Assembly (NCBI RefSeq): GCF_001652585.1
Contig: NZ_LWLG01000013.1
Span: forward strand, 34,376-66,375
Reading direction: 5' to 3'
DNA from: Thermosulfurimonas dismutans
Lineage (GTDB): Bacteria; Desulfobacterota; Thermodesulfobacteria; Thermodesulfobacteriales; Thermodesulfobacteriaceae
DNA length: 32,000 nt
Made by a program: the position numbers and the translations under genes. This document shows positions 15,145-25,229 of this stretch, piece by piece (within the stretch, counting starts at the first letter, position 1; each line of letters begins with the position of its first letter). The notes under the pieces were generated by a model. The model was given only the letters and a program-made list of their open reading frames with translations, did not search any database and was not told the origin of the DNA.

Positions 15145-15188
15145 TGGCGGCCCCACCGGGACTCGAACCCGGGTCTCTGGCGTGAGAG
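15145..15188 (-). tRNA. Truncated tRNA-Glu(CUC)-like 3' fragment (anticodon loop to CCA); not an intact gene; putative att remnant at the island boundary
   Basis: The minus strand reads CTCTCAC-GCCAG-AGAC-CCGGG-TTCGAGT-CCCGG-TGGGGCC-G-CCA. These parts are the anticodon loop (CU-CUC-AC), 3' anticodon stem, 4-nt variable loop, perfect T-arm, 3' acceptor strand, discriminator G and CCA. No complementary CTGGC or GGCCCCA lies upstream. Confidence 0.8.
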
Positions 15189-15203
15189 TAGGATTCGCAT
15201 TTC

Positions 15204-15896: not shown

Positions 15897-16097
15897 TCAT
15901 CCGGTATCGATTTCCCGGAGCAAGTGCGCAGGCAGGTCAATAAAGGCAAAAAAATCTTTTGGGTAGAGGTAAGGTTCTCCACTTTCGTCTATGACTTTGA
16001 GGAGGCCGTATTCCTCTCCGAGGACGGGATAAACTTTCCACTTTTCGAGAGAAAGCTCATAGCCCTGGTTTTTGATGCAAAGGGCGATCTTACTCAT
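15897..16097 (-). CDS. Hypothetical small protein (66 aa)
   Basis: Clean ORF with an ATG start and no motif I can name. Confidence 0.45.
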   Translation of the reverse strand: MSKIALCIKNQGYELSLEKWKVYPVLGEEYGLLKVIDESGEPYLYPKDFFAFIDLPAHLLREIDTG

Positions 16098-16741: not shown

Positions 16742-18573
16742 TTAGCCGCTCGAAAGCCTCTGAGTAAGCCTTTTCCACCAGCGAAAGCCTTTCTTCTCAT
16801 CCTCCAGATCCAGAAAGTTCTTAAATCTTTGGGCGTCCAAGAGGACTACCCCTTTGGTTTCCACCACCACGCCCGAGGGAAGATAGTTTACCAGCGAATC
16901 CTTATCCGGCCGGGAATGTTCCAAGAAGGCCCGGGTGATATCAAAGTACTCCCGACCGTCAATTTTTATAGTCTTTGCAAACAGTTCCTGGTGGGCGTGG
17001 TAAAAGGTAAACCAGGCCCGGCGGGCTCGCTCCCGATAGTAAAGATCTACAAGCCTTTCCTCCGTAAACCACCTCGGCCGATCCAGATCCAATTCCTCAA
17101 AATACTCCAGAAAGATTTCCCTGGCAGGTTTTAAGAAGTCTTCGGGGAAAAAGATTTCTTTCTGCCGGAATCTTCGTTCGAGTCTGAAAACGAAATCTCG
17201 GAAGAGGTCCTCTTCAAGACGGTATTCCCGTTTTACTCTCTGAGGAAACGGGACGGAAAGTGGAAGATAGTAGATTCGGCGCATGACCTCCGGAGGGGCG
17301 TGGAAGTCCTTCTCGTTTCCGGTGGCCAGGAAACAGGCATGGGGGCCGGAGAAGGTGTTGGCCATCTCTTTGATGAACTGCACGCCTTCGTATGATCTTT
17401 CCGAAGTGGTGGTGAAGTACTGCCGTTTAACCTCGTCCACCAGGACGGGAAAGAGATTTCCGTTGGTAAGAAGAAGATAAATACCGCGCGAGTTGATTTT
17501 TCCGGCCGGGAATTTGGCCTTGGGAGTATAATGGTAATGAAGGCCGTGGTTTCCCAGAAGACGACTTATGGCACGCAGAAGAAAGGTCTTTCCGGAGCCG
17601 GCCGCCCCTGCGATATAAAGGAAGATGGGTACTTCCGCTAGATACTCTTCCCCCAGAAGGGAAGCCTCTTTGCGAATGAGCCACAGAAAGGGCGACATGA
17701 AGGCGTAAAGGACGGCCTCGAAGGCAATGCGGCTAGCCCGCTCTTCGCCGGTAAGCTCGGAGTAGGAGCTCAAAAACTCATTAAGTCCCTGAAAAACCGT
17801 CTGGAGCCTCTCCAGAGGAAGCTCCCTTCCCAGAGGCTCGCCATTTCTGAAAAGTCCTTCCTCACGCCATTGGAATCTAGGCCTATCGTCCTCGAATTCC
17901 CTGGTCTCCTGGACGGTTCGCTTGAGCACCCGGAAAAGGGCCTCTTTTTTCGCATAAACCTCTCTGGGGGAGATAAGGATGGCCCCGGATTCCGTGCGCT
18001 TGGTTATGACCCGAAAAACCTCAAGGAGCTTTCTTTGTTCGCGGACGTTTTCCTCTTTTTCTTTGATCTTCTTTTCCATCTCTTCCAGAGAGTCTTTTAA
18101 GTGAGCTTCCACAAGGAGGGTTTTCACCTCCCCGATACGGTCGGCAAAAAACTCCAGGGTTTCCTTGTCTTTGACCAATAAGGCTTCAGGGAGTTTCTTT
18201 TTCTTTTGGAGAAAATCTTTAGGGAATAGGGGACGAGAAGATTTCTTTAAATGTCTTAGTACCTTTTCAAAGAGGGCAAATTTGGACGGATTCTCTTCTT
18301 CATCAAAGACTTCGAGGATCTCCCATTGGCGTCCGCCAAGGGCTCTCTCGGTGAGGTTGGCGCTTCCCCAGATAAGCCTGCGCCCAGTCTCACCTTTTAA
18401 GAGAAAGATTTTGGCATGACTGGCTTCAAAGGGTACCAATACTTGGTAATCTCCTTTGGAGAGTTTTTCGAGAATTTGGGCGTTGGCCGAAACTTCTTCA
18501 AAGAGTCGGCGATTTTCCTCCGGTTCAAAAAAGGCCGCAAGTCCTCGCGCCGATTCCGGGAAACCTACTATGA
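16742..18573 (-). pseudogene. C-terminal 608 codons of an IS-split PLD-nuclease / P-loop NTPase fusion gene
   Basis: HKD-type motif 'HAKIFLLKGETGRRLIWGSANLT'; coiled-coil-like K/E-rich linker; Walker A 'IAGAAGSGKT'; Walker B 'FPVLVDEV'; 'FLATGNE'. The first ~33 codons of the listed ORF (18574-18673) are IS-derived. Confidence 0.85.
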
Positions 18574-19830
18574 GGGACTGTCCACCCGTTTGTGTAAATT
18601 TCATTATAGCCGGTCCTCGAAGAGAATTGCTATCTGGCCGTATATCTGAGGCCAGCCCTTGATCTGGGCCCATTTCCGCTCAAGCTCCATAGCTGCCATG
18701 TACAAGCACTTTAACAGGGATTCTTCCGTCGGAAATACCCGTCTTCCGGCCGTAGCCTTACGAAATTTACTATTTACGCTCTCTATAATATTTGTCGTGT
18801 ACATTACTCGCCTAATCTCCACAGGATACCTGAAAAAGGCTGTAAGAGCCTCCCAGTTCGCCTGCCAGCTCTTCACTACGTGAGGGTATTTACTCCCCCA
18901 TTTCTCCGAAAAAGCCTCCAGCTCCCTCTCCGCCGCCTCAAGCGTGGCCGCCCCATAGATCCTCTTGAGATCCCGAGCTATTTCACGTCTCTCTTTCCAA
19001 GCCACATACCTCAAGGAATTCCTGATCTGATGCACTATGCATCTCTGGATATCCGCCCTCGGGTAAACCGCCCCTATGGCCTTCTCAAGCCCAGAAAGCC
19101 CATCCACGCTGAAAATGAAAACATCCTTCACCCCTCGAGACTTTAGGTCGTTCAATACACCAAGCCAAAATCGGCTCGATTCTGTCCCGTTTATCCAAAA
19201 ACCTAAAATCTCCTTATAACCCTCAAGATCGAGTCCTATCGCCACATATACCGCCTTGTTCCTTACCTGCCCCTCCTCCCTGGCTTTATAGAAAATACAG
19301 TCTATCCAAATCAAAAAATACTTCTCCTTGAGCGGCCTCGAACGCCATTCCTCTATCTCCGGAAGTAGCCGATCCGTAATCTTGGAAATCAAAGAAGGAC
19401 TTACGTCAAAACCATACATCTCCGAAAGGATCTCCTGGATATCCCTGGTACTCATACCTTTGGCGTAAAGGGCTACAATCTGGTTTTCGATCTCATCCAG
19501 CATAGTCTGGCGCTTCCTGACTATTTGAGGCTCAAATTCGCCCTTCCGATCCCTGGGAACCTTGATCTCCAGGGCCCCGGAAGAGGTCTTAATCGTCTTG
19601 GAACTGTAGCCGTTCCGGGAATTGTCGGTATCCGAGCGCTCGTATCTCCCGTAGCCCAAAAACTCCTCTAGTTCGGCCTCAAGGGCTTCCCTCAAAGTAC
19701 GCCGGACAAGTTCCTTAATGGTGGCCTGCACTTCTTCGGGCTGAGGTGCCTTCTTGGCTCTTGCCATAGTGTCCACCCTCCTTTTGTAATTTGCTTATTC
19801 TAAAATCTCCACAGTTGGGTGGACACTCCC
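18574..19830 (-). mobile_element. IS256-family insertion sequence, copy 1 (1257 bp), intact
   Basis: Imperfect terminal IRs: GGGACTGTCCACCCGTTTGTGTAAATTTCA (18574-18603) versus the complement of 19801-19830, GGGAGTGTCCACCCAACTGTGGAGATTTTA (23/30 match). Perfect 8-bp TSD TACTATGA at 18566-18573 and 19831-19838. Confidence 0.95.
18604..19776 (-). CDS. IS256/Mutator-family transposase (390 aa)
   Basis: 'NGYSSKTIKTSSGALEIKVPRDRKGEF', 'VDGLSGLEKAI', 'IQRCIVHQIRNS', 'YTTNIIESVNSKFRK'. Confidence 0.95.
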   Translation of the reverse strand: MDTMARAKKAPQPEEVQATIKELVRRTLREALEAELEEFLGYGRYERSDTDNSRNGYSSKTIKTSSGALEIKVPRDRKGEFEPQIVRKRQTMLDEIENQIVALYAKGMSTRDIQEILSEMYGFDVSPSLISKITDRLLPEIEEWRSRPLKEKYFLIWIDCIFYKAREEGQVRNKAVYVAIGLDLEGYKEILGFWINGTESSRFWLGVLNDLKSRGVKDVFIFSVDGLSGLEKAIGAVYPRADIQRCIVHQIRNSLRYVAWKERREIARDLKRIYGAATLEAAERELEAFSEKWGSKYPHVVKSWQANWEALTAFFRYPVEIRRVMYTTNIIESVNSKFRKATAGRRVFPTEESLLKCLYMAAMELERKWAQIKGWPQIYGQIAILFEDRL

Positions 19831-20058
19831 TACTATGAAACACAATTTTTCGAAACCAAGATTCAGGAAGAACTCCAAGGCCTTTCTTATGGAGGCCGAA
19901 TAGGTGAGCACCAGGGCCTCCTGATAGCCTGCCACTAAACTCTGAGGGTCTCCAGAGAACTCCCGCCCTTTATATAAGATCTTGAGACGGCTCTCCGAAG
20001 TGTTTTCAAAAAGCCCCGCCATCCTTTTCATCTTGAGGTCTTTTTGTTGTTTTGACAA
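19831..20058 (-). pseudogene. N-terminal 76 codons of the IS-split PLD-nuclease / P-loop NTPase gene
   Basis: Reads '...LVLTYSASIRKALEFFLNLGFEKLCFIV' up to the TSD. It joins in frame to 18565 once the IS and one TSD copy are removed. The start is ambiguous (TTG 20058, ATG 20031 or ATG 20022). Confidence 0.8.
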
Positions 20059-20079
20059 GGCGTCGCTTGGAGTTATATT
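20052..20079 (+). promoter_or_regulatory. Near-consensus sigma-70-type promoter for the plus-strand operon
   Basis: TTGACA (20052-20057), 16-nt spacer, TATATT (20074-20079), 24 nt upstream of ATG 20103. Confidence 0.4.
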
Positions 20080-20102
20080 CAGAAAATCAACTCATAGAAC
20101 CT

Positions 20103-20855
20103 ATGGCACTTGACGAAAAGATTCTCTATCGCATTTTTTCCGAGCTTTTTCCGGATGAGACGGTTGAAAATTGGGCCTTTCTCGGAGACGGCTTTACGCC
20201 TTTTGCGGACTGGAGGCGAGCCGCCGGCCCCAAAAGAGAGCTTTGCTTTCTTATCAAAACCTGCGATCCTCGAAAGTTTATCGTAAAAGCCGAGGATATT
20301 CTCGGTTCCCATTGCCGCATAGCCAAGCTCGATGAGGCCATGGGGGTCTATTCTTTCTGGGTAGGCTGGTGCGAGACGCCGATCTTTGCGGTCTCCTTTT
20401 TCGTGCCGTTTTCGGACCCGTGGCGGAAAAAGCTCTTTGAGAGGATTTTTTACGGAGATAAGGAAAAATTTCACTATTGCAAACTATTCAATCATGGGGT
20501 GCGTCTCCTTCCGGACGAAGACTTTGGGGTTCTTTCCGTGGCCCTCGGAAGACAGGTAAGACGCCCACTTGATGGATTTTACGCTCTGGTGCTGGCCTCA
20601 AATGACCGAGCCACGGCCGAGAGAATCGAGGAGCTTGCGGGGATTCTTAAAATTTTAGAAAAGTTGAAAATCTTGGAAAAGAAGGCTTCTTTATTCAATT
20701 TAGCCAAAAACAGAATGGAAAGTTACAAGGATCGTGGTATCAATCGGTTTTTTTATTTTTGGGACTATGAGGAGCGCTGGTTACGGAGCGCGAAAGCCGA
20801 AGAAGTAAGAATGTTAAAGCGTATGAAAAGCTCCCTGCTTTTCAAAGACGACTAG
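20103..20855 (+). CDS. Hypothetical protein (250 aa), first gene of the operon
   Basis: ATG 20103 chosen because the TTG at 20052 coincides with the predicted -35 box. No recognisable motif. 5-nt gap to the next gene. Confidence 0.6.
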   Translation: MALDEKILYRIFSELFPDETVENWAFLGDGFTPFADWRRAAGPKRELCFLIKTCDPRKFIVKAEDILGSHCRIAKLDEAMGVYSFWVGWCETPIFAVSFFVPFSDPWRKKLFERIFYGDKEKFHYCKLFNHGVRLLPDEDFGVLSVALGRQVRRPLDGFYALVLASNDRATAERIEELAGILKILEKLKILEKKASLFNLAKNRMESYKDRGINRFFYFWDYEERWLRSAKAEEVRMLKRMKSSLLFKDD

Positions 20856-20860
20856 GAGTT

Positions 20861-21583
20861 ATGCTAGCCTTTGCCGCGGACATTCACGGCGAGTGGCGCA
20901 GGCTTTACGAGAACCTCCCTCAGGAGGTGGAAGCGGTTTTCATCTGCGGGGACGCTGAAATGGTTCGCTCTGAGGAGGATTTGGCGCTTATACCGGCTCC
21001 CAAGAAGCATCTAAAGCTCGGAGATTTTCATTTCTTTTGGGAGCGGGGCGAGGTTCCCGTTCCGACCTATGTCCTTCTTGGAAACCACGAGCCGTACCTG
21101 TGGCTCTGGGAGCACGAAAAAAACGGACCGACGGAGGTCATTAAGAACCTATGGGTGCTGGCACGGTCGGGAGTTATTGAGCTTTGCGGGCTAAAGATTG
21201 CTTATCTTGGCAGGGTTTTTGCCCCTACTACCTATTTTGAAGGGCGAGTATGGAATCCAGAGAAAGACAAGAGGTCCAAAAAGTCGAAGCTTGCGAGCCG
21301 TTTTACACCGGAAGATGTAGAAAGACTCATTTCAGAGGCGGCTAAAGTGGAAGATGTCGATGTACTCGCTCTCCACGAAAATCCGAATTATTGCAAGGAC
21401 GCACGAGGAAGAGAAGTCTATCGGAATATTGTTGAGCTTGTGAGACCGAAACTCATCATTTGCGGACATATGCATCGTCTTTTACTGGAAACTTTTTCTG
21501 GTGTTCCTATTTTTGGGCTTCCATATGGGATTCCAGTCACTTGGCAAAAAATCGAGTGTTCGATGGAAAACACAAATCTTTGA
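20861..21583 (+). CDS. Calcineurin-fold metallophosphoesterase, Dbr1 (debranching enzyme)-like, paralog 1
   Basis: Motifs 'ADIHGE', 'CGDAE', 'LGNHEP', 'ALHENP', 'CGHMH'. The block 'GDAEMVRSEEDLALIPAPKKHLKLGDFHFFW' resembles the Dbr1 region '[31 protein letters not shown]' (from memory). Confidence 0.7.
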   Translation: MLAFAADIHGEWRRLYENLPQEVEAVFICGDAEMVRSEEDLALIPAPKKHLKLGDFHFFWERGEVPVPTYVLLGNHEPYLWLWEHEKNGPTEVIKNLWVLARSGVIELCGLKIAYLGRVFAPTTYFEGRVWNPEKDKRSKKSKLASRFTPEDVERLISEAAKVEDVDVLALHENPNYCKDARGREVYRNIVELVRPKLIICGHMHRLLLETFSGVPIFGLPYGIPVTWQKIECSMENTNL

Positions 21584-21635
21584 GCGCTAATTCGACCTCG
21601 ATGTTTCGTCCAAGCCGATAAGTTTTCAATAGGCT

Positions 21636-22505
21636 ATGCATTTCGCAGTCATCGGTGATGTTCACGGGCGATTTGAGTTGCTGGCAAGGGTGCTTGCGGT
21701 CCTGCGCGACCGCTACGGGGTAGAACTCGCCTTTCAGGTGGGCGACTTGGCCTTTCTATCCTCAAGCGACCCCAAGTACCTCAAGGCCCTGAAGATGGCC
21801 GGGCCGCAAACTCCGCCCCTCATTTACGACGTTTTTGATGATGAAGTCCAAGCCATAAGGTTCCTCCACGGCGACATCGAGCTTCCCGTCCCGGTCTACT
21901 TCGTAGGCGGAAATCACGAGGACTGGCCGTACTTAGACTTCGTGGAAGAGAAGATGCGCGAGCAGGGGATAGCACCGCCCTACGAGATTGCGCCGAACCT
22001 CTTTTTCCTGGGAAAGGCGAGCGTGGTGGAGGTGTCCGAAATGCGGGTCGTCACCCTTTCAGGGATCTACGACCGCCTCAAGTGGGAGCTCTGCGTGACC
22101 TCACCGCGGAAGCTCTACTACCACAACCAAGAAGACGAAGAGGCGCTTCTCTTCCATGCGCCCGGGGCGGACCTTTTCATCGCGCACGAGTGGCCGGTGA
22201 AGCTCGCTTCGGGCGCAACCTGGGAGGAGGCCATTTACGCAGCCGTCGGCTCTCCCACGGTGGACCGGCTCATCCACCACTTTCGGCCCGCGCTTTCGTT
22301 CCACGGGCACATGCACCGCTACGCGCAGGGCATTCGCGGCCCCATGGGAGAGCGGCCCACGAAGTGGGTGGGCCTGGACATGCTCATCGTGGACCACTAC
22401 CACAGAGTCCGCAATGTGGCCCTTTGCGAGTTCGAGGGGCCGGGTGCGGTGAGGCTCCTTTTTACCGCGGAGGCGAGGAAACTCTTAAAGGACGCTTCCG
22501 CTTAG
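21636..22505 (+). CDS. Calcineurin-fold metallophosphoesterase, Dbr1 (debranching enzyme)-like, paralog 2
   Basis: Motifs 'IGDVHGR', 'VGDLAF', 'GGNHED', 'IAHEWP', 'HGHMH'. 'APNLFFLGKASVV...LSGIY' and 'GSPTVDRLIHHFRPALSFHGHMH' parallel recalled human DBR1 blocks. The gene is clearly more GC-rich than its neighbour. Confidence 0.7.
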   Translation: MHFAVIGDVHGRFELLARVLAVLRDRYGVELAFQVGDLAFLSSSDPKYLKALKMAGPQTPPLIYDVFDDEVQAIRFLHGDIELPVPVYFVGGNHEDWPYLDFVEEKMREQGIAPPYEIAPNLFFLGKASVVEVSEMRVVTLSGIYDRLKWELCVTSPRKLYYHNQEDEEALLFHAPGADLFIAHEWPVKLASGATWEEAIYAAVGSPTVDRLIHHFRPALSFHGHMHRYAQGIRGPMGERPTKWVGLDMLIVDHYHRVRNVALCEFEGPGAVRLLFTAEARKLLKDASA

Positions 22506-22514
22506 GAGAGCACG

Positions 22515-22886
22515 ATGTCAACCCGAGACCTTTTGCGGTTTGCAAGAGAAGTGGAAAAGAGCCGTCCCCGACTGAGGCGGGTCCTCAAGGTGGAGGAGCT
22601 TTATACCGAGTACCTCACGCGTCTTCCCCGCCTTCCGGTGGTGCGGGCCGGTTTCGAGGTCCTCAACGAATTTAATCTCCGCATCGTTTCCCCGAAAGCG
22701 CTTATTGCGGTGCTCCTCTGTCTTCCCGAGCGCTCAATGGACCTCTCTGCTTTCGTGCGGGTGCTTCCCGAAGTCTTTCCAGAGGATCTTTCCAGAGCCC
22801 TGCAAGTCCTTTCGGGGGACCCCGGGGTGCTTGCAGTGGTTCTCTACGGTTCAAGGGCTCGAGGAGATGCTCGGCCGGATTCGGAC
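22515..22886 (+). pseudogene. NTase-domain protein (~100-aa N-terminal extension plus a minimal nucleotidyltransferase motif), 3'-truncated by an IS
   Basis: 'VLAVVLYGSRARGDARPDSD' is the MNT/Pol-beta-type GS-x9-D-x-D motif. It is cut directly after DSD by the IS inverted repeat starting at 22887/22888. The listed ORF tail 'WGGIQFCVSGE*' is IS sequence. Confidence 0.75.
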
Positions 22887-22887
22887 T

Positions 22888-24237
22888 GGGGTGGTATTCA
22901 ATTTTGTGTGTCTGGAGAGTAAATAAGGAAGGCCCCTGGTGAAGGGCCTTCCTAAAAGAAAAGGGGAAAAGAAGAAACTCATCAAGGAGGTAACCGCTAT
23001 GAAACAGAATAATCCCTTCACCGAAGAATTTCTAGAACAACTTAAGGACTGGGAAAACTTTGTCCCCAGAGAGTTCCTCTCCTGGCTCTTTAAAAACCTG
23101 GGCCTGGCACACCGCGCCATCCACCTCAAGAAACATCCCCATGACAAGGGAAACGGCTTCTACGAAAGAACACTACAGATAGGATACAGATAGGAAGTCT
23201 TCCTTTTCCCGTAGAGGTGGCCCGTACACGGTATGAAAAGTTCCGGCCCTTTTTCCTCCCTCCAGGACACCTCCGGTATCTCCCCGAAGATTACCTCCAC
23301 CTGACCTCCTCCCTTCTCCTGGGCTCCCGATCCATCGATAGCGCTTCCCGGGCCCTAAAAAATATGGGCCTCCCCATAAATCAAGATTACCTGGAAGAAG
23401 TGATCGAAGAGTTCGTGACCTATCTCGAGGACCTCAACTCCTGCCCGCTGCCTTCAGATTTGGCCGCCCTCATCCTGGATGCCAAACATATCCACCAGAA
23501 GCTCAAAGACGGACAGAAGGTCATGGGACATACCACCTATGTGGCCCTGGGCCTTACCCTGGATGGGCAGAAGAAGATCCTAGGCCTCTACACCTTCGAG
23601 GGCTCAGAGAGCCTCGAGGGCTGGAAGAAGACCCTGGAGAAGCTTCTTCAGCGGGGGCTGAGGGGGATCCTTATCGTGATCCATGATGACTTCCCTGGAC
23701 TCCTGGGCCTCACCTCAAGCCTTTTTCCTCAGGCGGATATTCAACTTTGTACGGTGCACCTTTGCCGGAATGCAAGAAAACACCTCTCCCAGGAGAACTA
23801 TCGCACCTTTAAGAGCTACTTCAAAAGCATCAAAGCAAGCCTCAGCTATGAGGAAGGCTTGAGGCTTTTTGATTCTCTTCTCAAGGAGCTTCCACAGGAG
23901 AACACCTTTGTGAAGCTTCTTGCAAAGAAGAAAGAGCACTATCTGGCCTTTTTGAAGTATCCGGAGGAGGTGAGACCGCTGTTTTCCTCGACCAATCTGG
24001 CCGAGGGGATCAACCGGAAGATAGAAGAGGCGGAGAGGGCCTGTGGGGGTTATTTCCATTCGGAACGGGACCGGGACTTCAGGTATGGGGTGCTAGCTAA
24101 GGAATTGCTAGAGGGCAGATGGAGGAGGGTCAACTGGAAATACCAGCGGGTGGCTCACCTCCTGAGATATCTTTTCGAGGAAAGGTTTAAAAATGAGGAC
24201 CTCTTGGTCTAGACACAGAAAACTTGACAAGCGCCCC
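22888..24237 (+). mobile_element. IS256/Mutator-family insertion sequence, copy 2 (divergent type, ~1350 bp), transposase inactivated
   Basis: IRs GGGGTGGTATTCAATTTTGTGTGTCT (22888-22913) versus the complement of 24212-24237, GGGGCGCTTGTCAAGTTTTCTGTGTCT. No matching TSD in the flanks. Internal 10-bp hairpin 22926-22935/22944-22953. Confidence 0.8.
22999..24212 (+). pseudogene. IS256/Mutator-family transposase disrupted by an 11-bp tandem duplication
   Basis: ATG 22999 follows AAGGAGG. 'NGFYERTLQIG' runs into a stop at 23191-23193, and the continuation '...SLPFPVEVARTRYEKFRPFF...' is in another frame. TACAGATAGGA occurs twice in tandem (23174-23184, 23185-23195); deleting one copy fuses the frames. 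Confidence 0.85.
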
Positions 24238-24416
24238 ATTTGGCCTCAAGGGAGAGAGCGCAAGCCTCTATCCATTGTTTCCGGGAAAACTTGGCTAACC
24301 CCTCTATCAGCTTGTCCAGCGCCCCTTCCTGGAGCTTTTCCAGACGCCCCAGGTTAGCCACGATCCTCTGGCGAACTTTTTCGCCTCACTAGCCCTTCCC
24401 TGCTGTCAAACTTGGG
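24238..24416 (-). mobile_element. IS1634/IS4-family-like fragment (copy C): IS terminus plus an internally deleted transposase 5' region
   Basis: My minus-strand translation is 'VRQRIVANLGRLEKLQEGALDKLIEGLAKFSRKQWIEACALSLEAK'. The terminal CTGTCAAACTTGGG (24403-24416) is shared with the copies at 25216-25229 and 30038-30051. The left side is cut by the IR of IS256-type copy 2. Confidence 0.6.
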
Positions 24417-24465: not shown

Positions 24466-24669
24466 ATGAAGATCTACGAAACGGTAGTCACGCCGGATCG
24501 AAAAATAGTCGTGGAAAATATTTCTTTGATGCCGGGAGAAAAGGTCAAGTTGCTGATACTCAGGGAAAAGTCTGGCCGGAAGGGATATCCGCTCAGGGGA
24601 AGAAGAGTAGAATATATTGATCCTTTCGAAAGCGTGGCGGAAGATGAATGGGAAGCCCTAAAATGGTAG
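24466..24669 (+). CDS. vapB: VapB-type antitoxin (AF2212/DUF104-like)
   Basis: 67 aa, 'MKIYETVV...GEKVKLLILRE', C-terminal '..DPFESVAEDEWEAL'. ATGGTAG overlap with the PIN gene. Confidence 0.65.
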   Translation: MKIYETVVTPDRKIVVENISLMPGEKVKLLILREKSGRKGYPLRGRRVEYIDPFESVAEDEWEALKW

Positions 24670-24995
24670 TTCTTGACACCCATGTCTGGGTCTGGTGGGT
24701 TCATTCTCCAGAAAAATTAACCTCCAAACAAATTAGTGTCATTCAGGCTAATGAAAACGATTTAATAGGAATCTCGGCCATTTCCTGCTGGGAGATAGCG
24801 AAGTTGGTGGAACGGGGACGGTTGCGGCTTCCCTGCACCCTGGAGGAATGGTTCGATCTGGCTTTTTCCTATCCGGGGATAGAGATAATCCCTCTGACCC
24901 CTGAAATCGCCATAGAATCGACCAGGCTACCTGGAAACTTTCACAGAGATCCGGCGGATCAGCTGATTGTGGCCACAGCTCGGGTCCTGAATTGT
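24663..24995 (+). pseudogene. vapC: PIN-domain toxin VapC, 3'-truncated at a junction with IS1634-like sequence
   Basis: 'VVLDTHVWVWW', 'CWEIAKL', 'RDPADQLIVATARVLNCPLV'. From about 24996 the ORF reads the antisense of a transposase fragment, so the final acidic PIN residue region is missing. Confidence 0.75.
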
Positions 24996-25229
24996 CCGCT
25001 TGTCCAGCGCCCCTTCCTTAAGCTTTTCCAGACGCCCCAGGTTAGCCACGATCCTCTGGCGCACTTTTCCACTAACCCGCTTGCCCTCCACGATATAGAG
25101 ATAGGTTTTTGGAGGTGGAGACGGTAGAACAGAGGCAGGGAAGGGGAAAAAAGGGGGCATTTTAGGGGTATTTTGGGCCGAAAATACTCACTTCAGATTC
25201 ACCAGCCCTTTCCGACTGTCAAACTTGAG
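24960..25229. repeat. Left arm of a ~269-bp inverted repeat (36 nt of vapC plus the IS1634-like 5' end, transposase codons 1 to ~55, UTR and IS terminus)
   Basis: 24960-25198 equals the reverse complement of 30069-30307 with 2 mismatches in 239 nt (my alignment). The outer 31 nt are related but diverged. The minus-strand ORF 'MPPFFPFPASVLPSPPPKTYLYIVEGKRVSGKVRQRIVANLGRLEKLKEGALDK' is a typical IS1634-group N-terminus. Confidence 0.9.

What the first reader, a model, noticed from the sequence alone, without database searches (positions are those of the whole stretch)
16742..22886. Candidate undescribed defence-type module: a PLD-nuclease/P-loop ATPase gene divergent from an operon with two Dbr1-like phosphoesterases and an NTase
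The locus sits inside a tRNA-flanked island rich in toxin-antitoxin genes and IS elements. One gene (683 codons after reconstruction) combines a single-HKD PLD nuclease motif (HAKIFLL...GSANLT) with a P-loop NTPase (GAAGSGKT, FPVLVDEV, FLATGNE). It starts back-to-back, about 45-70 bp, with a plus-strand operon. That operon encodes a 250-aa protein with no motif I recognise and two calcineurin-fold phosphoesterases with a whole-length Dbr1-like pattern. Its last gene encodes a protein ending in a minimal NTase motif (GSRARGDARPDSD). Nuclease, NTPase, nucleotidyltransferase and 2'-5'-type phosphodiesterase is a parts list typical of signalling or abortive-infection immunity. I cannot map this combination to any named system. 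Both edges are IS-damaged, which is common for costly defence cargo.
Basis: partly seen in the sequence, partly recalled or inferred. Interest (0 to 1): 0.85.

Follow-up and report, generated by a model that had tools for sequence, protein, structure and literature searches.

The report
Two unrelated broken cassettes, not one system
The supposed five-gene defence module is two unrelated gene cassettes that only happen to be neighbours in a transposon-riddled island; the more interesting one is an insertion-disrupted gene of a widespread, uncharacterised family that fuses a restriction-type nuclease to a virus-type ring helicase.

Summary
The sequence features are real. Removing an IS256-family element (18574-19830, 8-bp duplication TCATAGTA) restores one open frame of 683 codons, or 674 from the ATG shared with homologs. 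It has a single HKD motif and a P-loop. Beside it lie a 250-aa orphan, two Dbr1-like metallophosphoesterases, and an MNT-type nucleotidyltransferase cut by a second IS.

- About 60 loci carry a homolog of the PLD gene (26 non-redundant groups, 655 kb). None has a homolog of any operon gene nearby.
- The one close copy of the operon (L008, 91% nt) has no PLD gene.
- More distant homologs of the second phosphoesterase stand alone.
- Homology to the two kinds of relatives switches at 20034/20035.

The PLD protein belongs to Pfam PF27394 (Aq_aa27), with 787 clusters at 50% identity. A confident model shows a BfiI/NgoAVII/SauUSI-like PLD nuclease joined to a D5/P4-type SF3 helicase. The gene is solitary, patchily distributed, on plasmids that have their own Rep, absent from phage collections, and near restriction-modification genes in about a quarter of groups. 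It matches no named system in PADLOC 2.0 or NCBIfam 20.

My best reading is a single-protein ATP-dependent restriction-like nuclease, inactivated here. The role of the Dbr1-like operon stays unknown.

The parts
16742..18565 (-). 3' part (607 codons plus stop) of the PLD-nuclease/SF3-helicase gene (Pfam PF27394, Aq_aa27). HKD His codon at 18418-18416. SF3 ATPase core at about 17231-17632.
   Evidence: ORF list and reconstruction. 85% nt / 88% aa identity to the intact homolog P0002. Invariant motifs. Fold matches.
18574..19830 (-). IS256-family insertion sequence (1257 bp) with an intact 390-aa transposase (18604-19776). It interrupts the PLD domain between codons 76 and 77. The 8-bp target duplication TCATAGTA lies at 18566-18573 and 19831-19838.
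   Evidence: Sequence reading and inverted repeat I1. Transposase_mut E 9.7e-125.
19831..20031 (-). 5' part of the PLD-helicase gene. The start is the ATG at 20031 shared with homologs.
20034..20035 (.). Homology breakpoint. To the left the window matches PLD-helicase loci (L001-L004). To the right it matches the operon-only contig L008.
   Evidence: blastn end points and the three-way comparison.
20103..20855 (+). g1: 250-aa protein of unknown function (alternative TTG start at 20052). Only one homolog was found.
   Evidence: No hit in Pfam, NCBIfam, PADLOC or PHROGs. One homolog, P0006, at 86%. The AF2 model is unusable, pLDDT 44.9.
20861..21583 (+). g2: Dbr1-like metallophosphoesterase core, 240 aa, without the Dbr1 C-terminal domain.
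   Evidence: Metallophos 6.4e-14. Best PDB sequence hit is Dbr1 4peh, 6.9e-12. phrog_1649.
21636..22505 (+). g3: second Dbr1-like metallophosphoesterase, 289 aa, paralog of g2.
   Evidence: Metallophos 7.9e-13. Aligns to Dbr1 4peh over residues 2-236, 3.3e-8. UniRef names it RNA lariat debranching enzyme.
22515..22887 (+). g4': 5' third of an MNT/Pol-beta-type nucleotidyltransferase gene. It is cut just after GSRARGDARPDSDW. The intact protein would be about 350 aa.
   Evidence: NTP_transf_2/Polbeta and MntA-type hits. Comparison with L008 and the repaired L008 protein.
22888..24240 (+). Second, degenerate IS256-like element. The transposase is split into 22939-23193 and 23217-24212. It has imperfect inverted ends and no target duplication. 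The g4 3' part is missing beyond it.
   Evidence: Transposase_mut 3.4e-39. Sequence and inverted repeat I3. No g4 C-terminal match in the window.
15145..15195 (-). tRNA 3' fragment (T arm, acceptor strand, CCA). Probably an attachment-site remnant at the left border of the variable island.
   Evidence: No intact tRNA.

Best explanation
The region holds two evolutionarily independent cassettes that abut at 20034/20035 inside an IS-riddled variable island. Both are inactivated.

Cassette A is one gene of the uncharacterised family PF27394 (Aq_aa27). It has an N-terminal single-HKD PLD nuclease of the restriction-endonuclease type (BfiI, NgoAVII, SauUSI). A poorly conserved linker and small beta domain follow. 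The C-terminal two thirds form an SF3 helicase module of the viral D5/P4 primase-helicase type. In effect a nuclease takes the place of the primase.

I propose that it acts alone as an ATP-dependent, restriction-like defence nuclease. The SF3 domains would form a ring that loads on and translocates along DNA. Neighbouring single-HKD domains would pair to form active sites that cut it. How it tells foreign from own DNA is unknown. In this genome a recent IS256 insertion has split the PLD domain.

Cassette B (g1-g4) is a small lineage-restricted operon of two Dbr1-like phosphodiesterases, an orphan protein and an MNT-type nucleotidyltransferase. Its role is unknown. It is not a partner of cassette A, and it is decaying in both known copies.

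Shown: the gene structures, domain and fold identities, conserved catalytic residues, and lack of co-localisation.
Inferred: hexamer formation, DNA cleavage, and the defence role.
For: Independence of the two cassettes:
- The closest intact homologs of A (P0002 at 88%, P0003 at 72%, P0005 distant) share only the gene itself with the window.
- 60 A-bearing loci (26 groups at 70% identity or more, 655 kb) contain no g1-g4 homolog. The single marginal hit is a generic phosphoesterase 7 kb away on an Arcobacter plasmid, E 0.008.
- Neither Metallophos nor an NTase appears among the families listed in the two Pfam censuses of neighbours.
- L008 carries g1-g3 at 91% nt and g4 at 67% but no A gene.
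- The homology switch is sharp.
- g3 homologs stand alone.

Nature of A:
- Invariant H, K, GS.N, Walker A GK, Walker B D, motif C N and an Arg across 55 diverse members.
- AF2 model with pLDDT 84.9.
- Foldseek against PDB gives vaccinia D5, ASFV PrimPol, MPXV E5, AAV Rep40, the SaPI5 primase-helicase and papillomavirus E1 for the C-terminal part. It gives NgoAVII R, SauUSI, BfiI, Zucchini and Tdp1 for the N-terminal domain.
- BFVD gives only D5/P4 primase-helicases.

Defence-like behaviour of A:
- The family is sizeable and of uniform length: 787 clusters, 473 of them at E 1e-10 or better.
- There is no conserved partner gene.
- The most recurrent neighbours are restriction-modification parts (N6_N4 or type III MTase in 4 groups, HsdM, HsdR, a PLD-ResIII fusion), in about 7 of 26 groups.
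- It is spread patchily over many phyla and sits at different loci in close relatives.
- The Athalassotoga and Arcobacter plasmids that carry it have their own replication initiators.
- It is absent from 50,697 phage records, from IMG/VR (a pattern-limited scan) and from PHROGs.
Against: - No experiment supports a defence role.
- The restriction-modification association is modest (about a quarter of groups) and has no background control.
- SF3 helicases are otherwise hallmarks of mobile-element replication. One copy lies next to parAB, two lie next to integrases, and one lineage sits in a PcfJ/Macro/UDG block typical of conjugative elements.
- No target-recognition domain was identified.
- The locus sample came from one or two peptide patterns and is not exhaustive.
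- In L008 an IS abuts the operon at the very nucleotide where the window switches to the A gene. An ancestral adjacency erased by that IS cannot be strictly excluded for this one lineage.
Confidence: 0.62

Rival explanations
1. One reading: the PLD/P-loop gene and the divergent g1-g4 operon form one multi-gene signalling or abortive-infection system. The NTase would make a signal, the Dbr1-like enzymes would clear it, and the nuclease-ATPase would be the effector.
For: The two are back to back in this genome, with 71 bp between the start codons. The parts list resembles signalling systems. All parts lie in an island with toxin-antitoxin genes. In L008 an IS sits exactly at the junction position, so a lost adjacency there cannot be excluded.
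Against: No co-localisation in 60 loci / 26 groups of the PLD-helicase family. The operon occurs without the PLD gene in L008. g3 homologs occur without any of the other genes. The homology breakpoint is sharp, 3-4 nt from the start codon. The ATPase is a translocating SF3 helicase, not a signal-sensing NTPase.
Confidence: 0.05
2. The PLD-SF3 protein is a replication or maintenance protein of a cryptic mobile element. The SF3 helicase would unwind the element's origin and the PLD domain would nick or resolve DNA. It would not be a defence enzyme.
For: All structural relatives of the helicase part are replicative helicases of viruses, satellites and plasmids. Copies occur on plasmids and next to parAB. 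An integrase lies nearby in two groups, and one lineage has a PcfJ/Macro/UDG block. The family's founding member lies on the A. aeolicus plasmid ece1.
Against: The Athalassotoga and Arcobacter plasmids encode separate replication initiators, and the Arcobacter one also a DnaB-like helicase. Most chromosomal copies are single genes among housekeeping genes, without integrase, primase or other element genes. There is no primase or origin-binding domain. The family has no relatives in phage collections or PHROGs. The PLD domain resembles restriction endonucleases.
Confidence: 0.25
3. The g1-g4 operon is a self-contained nucleic-acid-processing or small defence module. The MNT-type NTase would add nucleotides to, or make 2'-5'-linked products on, a target. 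The two Dbr1-like phosphodiesterases would reverse or process that, for example by debranching lariat-like or 2'-5'-linked RNA.
For: The cluster is tight and co-directional, and its order is kept at 91% nt identity in L008. g2 and g3 align with Dbr1 over the whole catalytic core, including the stretch between motifs II and III and a loop at the position of the lariat-recognition loop. There are weak hits to the PADLOC candidates PDC-S10 and PDC-S09. L008 has a third paralog nearby.
Against: The cluster was seen only in two close relatives, and both are damaged: an IS cut here, and a stop in g2 plus a frameshift in g4 in L008. More distant g3 homologs lack the other genes. No effector or sensor is evident. 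g1 is an orphan. The Dbr1 Cys in motif I and the Dbr1 C-terminal domain are absent.
Confidence: 0.2

Closest known systems
SauUSI (ATP-dependent type IV restriction endonuclease, PDB 7clg)
   Same: It is a single polypeptide that joins an N-terminal single-HKD PLD nuclease to an ATP-driven DNA motor. The PLD domains match by fold (E 1.3e-4).
   Different: The SauUSI motor is an SF2 helicase, and it has an SRA-like reader of modified cytosine. Here the motor is a ring-forming SF3 helicase and no reader domain was found.
NgoAVII / CglI and BfiI restriction enzymes (PDB 4rct, 2c1l)
   Same: The PLD catalytic domain is of the same subtype, HxK...GSxN without the Asp at +4 (Pfam RE_NgoFVII weak hit; Foldseek 1.2e-4 and 2.7e-3). 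By established knowledge, NgoAVII and CglI also need a separate ATPase.
   Different: Those enzymes carry a B3-like DNA-binding domain and, where ATP-dependent, a separate ATPase subunit. Here the nuclease and an SF3 motor are fused.
D5/P4-type primase-helicases of viruses, satellites and plasmids (vaccinia D5, ASFV PrimPol, SaPI5 Pri-Rep, P4 alpha)
   Same: The whole C-terminal two thirds (collar helices, SF3 core with motifs A, B, C and Arg finger, C-terminal domain) superposes on them.
   Different: The N-terminal primase, TOPRIM or origin-binding part is replaced by a PLD nuclease. There is no sequence-level hit to any PHROG or phage record.
Mokosh, DISARM and Azaca (defence systems that include PLD nucleases)
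   Same: They combine a PLD nuclease with helicase or ATPase functions. There is a weak local PADLOC hit to ZacB at the HKD motif (2.6e-6).
   Different: Only this motif-level ZacB hit reached E<=1 among the PADLOC models for PLD-containing systems, and it is too short and weak for membership. By my own knowledge, the motors of those systems are SF1 or SF2, not SF3, and they are mostly multi-gene.
Dbr1, the eukaryotic RNA lariat debranching enzyme (PDB 4peh)
   Same: g2 and g3 have Dbr1 as their best and almost only PDB sequence relative. The alignment covers the whole metallophosphoesterase core.
   Different: Motif I has Asp rather than the Dbr1 Cys. There is no Dbr1 C-terminal domain (PF05011). 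The proteins are 240 and 289 aa, against the roughly 350-aa Dbr1 chains in the PDB. They are bacterial, paralogous and operon-encoded.
MntA-type minimal nucleotidyltransferases (MNT-HEPN toxin-antitoxin, PDB 7ae2)
   Same: g4 has the GSxxRG...D.D motif and hits MntA/Polbeta profiles.
   Different: g4 would be about 350 aa, with an extra 95-aa N-terminal region and a roughly 170-aa C-terminal region of unknown fold. No HEPN partner is present.

Membership tests
PLD superfamily nuclease (single HKD, restriction-endonuclease subtype) | HxK(x)nGSxN catalytic motif | tested here: met
   HAKIFLL...GSANLT in the window. H, K, G, S and N are invariant in 55 family members. Pfam PLDc_2 scores 4e-4 and RE_NgoFVII 0.014, both below their cut-offs.
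PLD superfamily nuclease (single HKD, restriction-endonuclease subtype) | PLD fold | tested here: met
   The model of P0002 (pLDDT 84.9) matches NgoAVII R, SauUSI, BfiI, Zucchini and Tdp1 with probability 1.00.
PLD superfamily nuclease (single HKD, restriction-endonuclease subtype) | Dimerisation of two HKD domains and nuclease activity | not testable with these tools
   Needs biochemistry or a multimer structure.
SF3 helicase (D5/P4 type) | Motifs A (GxxxxGK[ST]), B (hhhDE), C (hhTxN) and a downstream Arg | tested here: met
   GAAGSGKT, VLVDEV, LATGNE and RRIYY. G, K, D, N and R are invariant.
SF3 helicase (D5/P4 type) | SF3 fold with collar and C-terminal domain | tested here: met
   Foldseek: vaccinia D5 5e-5, ASFV PrimPol, MPXV E5, AAV Rep40, SaPI5 and E1. 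91 BFVD matches at E<=1e-3; the named top hits are almost all D5/P4 primase-helicases.
SF3 helicase (D5/P4 type) | Hexameric ring and DNA translocation | not testable with these tools
   Inferred from the family only.
Pfam PF27394 (Aq_aa27) | Match to the family profile | tested here: met
   PF27394 is the precomputed Pfam annotation of P0001 (the window's own product) and of P0002-P0005. The local Pfam copy does not hold this model.
Any named anti-phage system (PADLOC-DB 2.0, NCBIfam 20.0) | Significant full-length match of the proteins to the system's models | tested here: not met
   Only local, motif-level hits: ZacB 2.6e-6, mad8 7.6e-5, PDC-S10 1.8e-6, PDC-S09 3.7e-6, MntA 1.2e-5, HalB 5.7e-4. 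The NCBIfam hits are far below their curated cut-offs, and the PADLOC hits are short or weak.
   0 of 60 loci / 26 groups. L008 has the operon without the PLD gene. g3 homologs are solitary.
Dbr1 lariat debranching enzyme | Metallophosphoesterase core with the Dbr1-type sequence between motifs II and III | tested here: met
   phmmer against Dbr1 4peh: g2 6.9e-12, g3 3.3e-8 over residues 2-236.
Dbr1 lariat debranching enzyme | Cys in place of Asp in motif I (GCxHG) | tested here: not met
   g2 has AADIHG and g3 has IGDVHG. That the Cys is diagnostic rests on my own knowledge of Dbr1 structures.
Dbr1 lariat debranching enzyme | C-terminal domain (Pfam DBR1, PF05011) | tested here: not met
   No PF05011 hit. 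The proteins end soon after motif V. Eukaryote-like hits P0174-P0178 do carry it.
Dbr1 lariat debranching enzyme | Lariat-recognition loop and 2'-5' debranching activity | tested here: inconclusive
   A loop of similar length aligns at the right position in g3. Neither its function nor the enzyme's activity can be tested here.
MNT/Pol-beta minimal nucleotidyltransferase | hG[GS]x9-13Dh[DE]h motif | tested here: met
   The window has GSRARGDARPDSD and is then cut. The repaired L008 copy reads PDSDWDFLVL and matches NTP_transf_2 at 5.6e-9.
IS256 family insertion sequence | Mutator-type DDE transposase, terminal inverted repeats, 8-9 bp target duplication | tested here: met
   Transposase_mut 9.7e-125, 36-nt inverted ends, 8-bp TCATAGTA duplication.

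The most novel reading that the evidence does not exclude
PF27394 proteins are a new class of single-polypeptide, ATP-dependent restriction or defence nucleases. They would be built by replacing the primase of a viral D5/P4-type primase-helicase with a restriction-type PLD nuclease. To my knowledge this would be the first restriction-like enzyme driven by a hexameric SF3 ring motor, with three PLD dimers per ring. It would also be a clear case of a mobile-element replication engine recruited for immunity.
Probability: 0.4. Interest if true: 0.65.

Novelty: new variant of a known kind. Interest (0 to 1): 0.4.

Why it matters
If the PLD-SF3 family is a defence nuclease, it adds a fourth motor type (SF3) to the ATP-dependent restriction enzymes, next to SF2, AAA+/McrB and ABC/OLD. 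It would also show a virus-type replicative helicase turned against invaders. The family is widespread (787 clusters at 50% identity), has a single gene of about 675 aa, and could be tested directly.

The paired bacterial Dbr1-like phosphodiesterases are a smaller curiosity. To my knowledge no bacterial debranching enzyme is known, so they would be worth an activity test.

For this particular locus the practical message is negative. The five genes are not a system. Both cassettes are dead copies in an IS graveyard, so synthesising a 'repaired locus' as one unit would test the wrong hypothesis.

Tried and rejected
- A family-wide locus search with the 55-sequence alignment failed because no stretch was conserved enough. 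A 12-sequence alignment worked, but it used only one or two peptide patterns, so the locus sample is partial.
- The AF2 model of g1 from a two-sequence alignment had pLDDT 44.9 and was not used for fold search.
- A PDB sequence search with the PLD-helicase protein gave only spurious ubiquitin matches to its coiled linker.
- Searches for small conserved partner genes next to the PLD-helicase gene found none.
- Plasmid searches with g3 and with full-length g4 gave nothing useful.
- Literature searches for a PLD+SF3 defence system, for bacterial Dbr1 homologs, for ece1 and for 'aa27' gave nothing relevant.
- Plasmid replication initiator: considered and rejected, because the Athalassotoga and Arcobacter host plasmids have their own Rep.
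- Phage replication helicase: considered and rejected, because there are no phage, IMG/VR or PHROG relatives.
- HEPN partner in g4: I saw no Rx4-6H motif on reading the repaired C-terminal half of g4 by eye.

Full report
**What is in the sequence**

The minus-strand ORF at 16742-18673 and the short ORF at 19795-20058 are two halves of one gene. An insertion sequence splits them. Reading the minus strand shows the element at 18574-19830. It has 36-nt imperfect inverted ends and a perfect 8-bp target duplication, TCATAGTA. Its 390-aa ORF matches Transposase_mut at E 1e-124, so it belongs to the IS256 family.

Homologs begin at MKRMAG, which corresponds to the ATG at 20031. The native protein is therefore more likely 674 aa.

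On the plus strand there are four close-packed genes, separated by 5, 52 and 9 nt.
- g1 (20103-20855) has no hit in Pfam, NCBIfam, PADLOC or PHROGs.
- g2 (20861-21583) and g3 (21636-22505) match Metallophos at 6e-14 and 8e-13.
- g4 (22515 onward) has a Pol-beta/MNT-type nucleotidyltransferase motif.

g4 is cut after ...GSRARGDARPDSDW at about 22887 by a second, degenerate IS256-like element (about 22888-24240). This element has a split transposase and no target duplication. The rest of g4 is nowhere in the window.

The surroundings hold HicA/HicB, a PIN gene and further transposase fragments. ARAGORN and Rfam find no tRNA in the window. Only a tRNA 3' fragment lies at 15145-15195.

**Are the five genes one module?**

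The protein database holds the window's own truncated product, named phospholipase D family protein of Thermosulfurimonas dismutans. It also holds intact homologs at 88% (P0002), 72% (P0003) and about 30% (P0005) identity. All carry the precomputed Pfam family PF27394, 'Aq_aa27'.

None of their contigs has a phosphoesterase or nucleotidyltransferase next to the gene. At the nucleotide level only the gene itself is shared with the window. No small neighbour is shared either.

Conversely, the single homolog of g1 (P0006, 86%) lies on contig L008. That contig matches the window at 91% nt over g1-g3 and at 67% over g4. It has no PLD gene, and an IS lies upstream instead.

A three-way comparison shows the window following the PLD-gene loci up to 20034 and following L008 from 20035.

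I enlarged the sample through plasmid records and pattern scans of genome and metagenome collections. This gave 60 loci, 655 kb, falling into 26 groups at 70% identity or more.
- tblastn with g1-g4, an HMM of the Dbr1-like subfamily, and phmmer with the NTase domain found nothing. The one exception is a marginal hit (E 0.008) to a generic phosphoesterase 7 kb away on an Arcobacter plasmid.
- Among the families listed by two Pfam censuses of neighbours within 5 kb, there was neither Metallophos nor an NTase.
- Homologs of g3 at 77%, 48% and 30% identity have no g1, g2, g4 or PLD gene beside them.

One caveat applies. In L008 the IS abuts the operon at the same nucleotide as the junction. An erased adjacency in that one lineage therefore cannot be ruled out. 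It would not change the family-wide picture.

**What the PLD/P-loop protein is**

A profile search of 1.84 billion cluster representatives finds 787 clusters at E 1e-3 or better and 473 at 1e-10 or better. Nearly all are 650-750 aa and match over most of their length.

In an alignment of 55 diverse members the invariant residues are:
- H, K and GS.N of a single HKD motif;
- G and GK of Walker A;
- D of Walker B;
- N of a 'TTN' motif;
- an Arg in 'RRIYY'.

The last four are the A, B and C motifs and the arginine finger of SF3 helicases. The least conserved part is the linker and small beta domain between the two halves.

An AlphaFold model of P0002 is confident, with mean pLDDT 84.9. Foldseek against the PDB matches the C-terminal part to vaccinia D5, ASFV PrimPol, mpox E5, AAV Rep40, the SaPI5 primase-helicase, PriRep1, papillomavirus E1 and B19 NS1. 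It matches the N-terminal domain to the NgoAVII R protein, SauUSI, BfiI, Zucchini and Tdp1. Against predicted viral structures, the named top matches are D5/P4-type primase-helicases and related viral primases and helicases.

The protein is thus a restriction-type PLD nuclease sitting where viral primase-helicases carry their primase.

**Context of the family**

No partner gene is conserved.

The most recurrent neighbours are restriction-modification components. These are N6_N4/type III methyltransferases in four groups, HsdM, HsdR, and a PLD-ResIII fusion, found in roughly 7 of 26 groups. Many other copies sit alone among housekeeping genes.

The family is scattered over Thermodesulfobacteriota, Thermotogota, Campylobacterota, Spirochaetota, Nitrospirota, Gracilibacteria, Gammaproteobacteria, Firmicutes and a haloarchaeal plasmid. 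It sits at different loci in close relatives.

It occurs on plasmids, and the Athalassotoga and Arcobacter ones have their own replication initiators. The copy on A. aeolicus ece1 is fragmented.

It has no relatives in 50,697 phage records, in IMG/VR (a pattern-limited scan) or in PHROGs. It matches no named system in PADLOC-DB 2.0 or NCBIfam 20.0 beyond motif-level hits.

**Most likely mechanism**

I read the protein as a solitary ATP-dependent, restriction-like nuclease. An SF3 ring would load on DNA and translocate along it. Single-HKD domains of neighbouring subunits would pair, as in Nuc and BfiI (established knowledge of PLD nucleases), and cut the DNA.

The closest functional analogues are SauUSI (PLD plus an SF2 motor) and NgoAVII/CglI (a PLD nuclease with a separate ATPase).

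The domain identities and conserved catalytic residues are shown. Oligomerisation, DNA cleavage, target discrimination and a defence role are inferred.

The main rival is a replication or maintenance role in a cryptic mobile element. I put it at about 0.25. It is favoured by the SF3 ancestry, the parAB, integrase and PcfJ neighbours in a few loci, and the plasmid copies. It is disfavoured by the solitary occurrence, the separate Rep genes, the absence of a primase or origin-binding domain, and the absence from phages.

In this window the gene is dead. The IS splits the PLD domain at codon 76/77. The element and its duplication are intact and the rest of the frame is unbroken, so the insertion looks recent.

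**The g1-g4 operon**

g2 and g3 are paralogs. Apart from a weak CWF19L1 hit each, their only significant PDB sequence relative is the Entamoeba RNA lariat debranching enzyme Dbr1. The alignments run through the whole catalytic core. They include the Dbr1-typical stretch between motifs II and III and, in g3, a loop at the position of the lariat-recognition loop.

They differ from Dbr1 in two ways. They have Asp rather than Cys in motif I, and they lack the Dbr1 C-terminal domain. They are therefore Dbr1-like cores, not demonstrable Dbr1 orthologs.

The repaired L008 copy of g4 is a 349-aa protein. Only residues 93-178 are recognisable, as an MNT/Pol-beta nucleotidyltransferase. No HEPN partner is present. 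g1 remains an orphan, and its structure prediction failed.

The cluster was found only in the window and in L008. In L008, g2 carries an in-frame stop and g4 a frameshift within about 12 nt of the place where the window's g4 is cut.

A role in making and removing 2'-5'-linked or nucleotidylated nucleic acid is conceivable but untested. I rate it at about 0.2.

**Verdict**

The interpretation as one defence module is not supported.

The part worth following up is the PLD-SF3 helicase family, an uncharacterised and testable candidate for a new variant of ATP-dependent restriction enzyme. This locus holds only a broken copy of it, next to an unrelated, decaying operon.

Noticed in passing
window 15145-15195 (-): A tRNA 3' fragment (T arm, acceptor strand, CCA). 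It overlaps the 5' end of the long radical-SAM ORF call. There is no intact tRNA in the window. It is probably an attachment-site remnant marking the left border of the variable island (about 15.2-25.5 kb).
   Followed up: partly
window 22888-24240: The second IS256-like element has a transposase split into two ORFs, imperfect inverted ends and no target duplication. The 3' two thirds of g4 are missing, which points to an IS-associated deletion or rearrangement rather than a simple insertion.
   Followed up: partly
window 24307-24380 and 24995-25068: A 74-nt direct repeat (95% identical). On the minus strand it encodes the same transposase-like N-terminal peptide (..ANLGRLEKL..). The PIN gene at 24648-25127 runs into one copy. 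These are further IS debris.
   Followed up: no
L008 6700-6790 vs window 22875-22890: The two known copies of g4 are broken within about 12 nt of each other, at the catalytic motif. L008 has a 1-nt deletion at ..PDS|D.. and the window has an IS junction after ..PDSDW. This may be coincidence, or repeated selection against an active NTase.
   Followed up: no
L008 4546-5268 and 8116-9080: In L008, g2 has an in-frame TAG. A third Dbr1-like phosphoesterase paralog (255 aa) follows a MazE/PIN pair. A short duplicated piece of the g2 3' end lies just after it. DUF2357 and AAA genes lie beyond.
   Followed up: partly
L049 3522-5900: Directly after the PLD-SF3 gene lies a second PLD nuclease, fused to a ResIII/SF2 helicase (a SauUSI-like layout). 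Two different PLD-motor fusions sit side by side.
   Followed up: no
L055-L065 (e.g. L057 3226-13537): One lineage of the family sits in a conserved block with a PcfJ-like protein, two Macro-domain proteins and a uracil-DNA-glycosylase-family protein. This suggests a conjugative-element accessory region.
   Followed up: partly
L023 5925-10076; L005 and L012: In L023 a type III-like N6_N4 methyltransferase lies directly downstream on the same strand as the PLD-SF3 gene. In L005 and L012 similar methyltransferases with helicase genes lie divergently upstream. In some lineages the protein might work with a methyltransferase.
   Followed up: partly
L011 (A. aeolicus plasmid ece1) 7054-8991: The copy that gave the Pfam family its name appears fragmented into several short ORFs. 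Only the ATPase segment matches.
   Followed up: no
window 15897-16097 (-): A 66-aa ORF between the HicAB pair and the PLD-helicase gene matches a PHROG of unknown function (phrog_34144, 4.5e-5).
   Followed up: no
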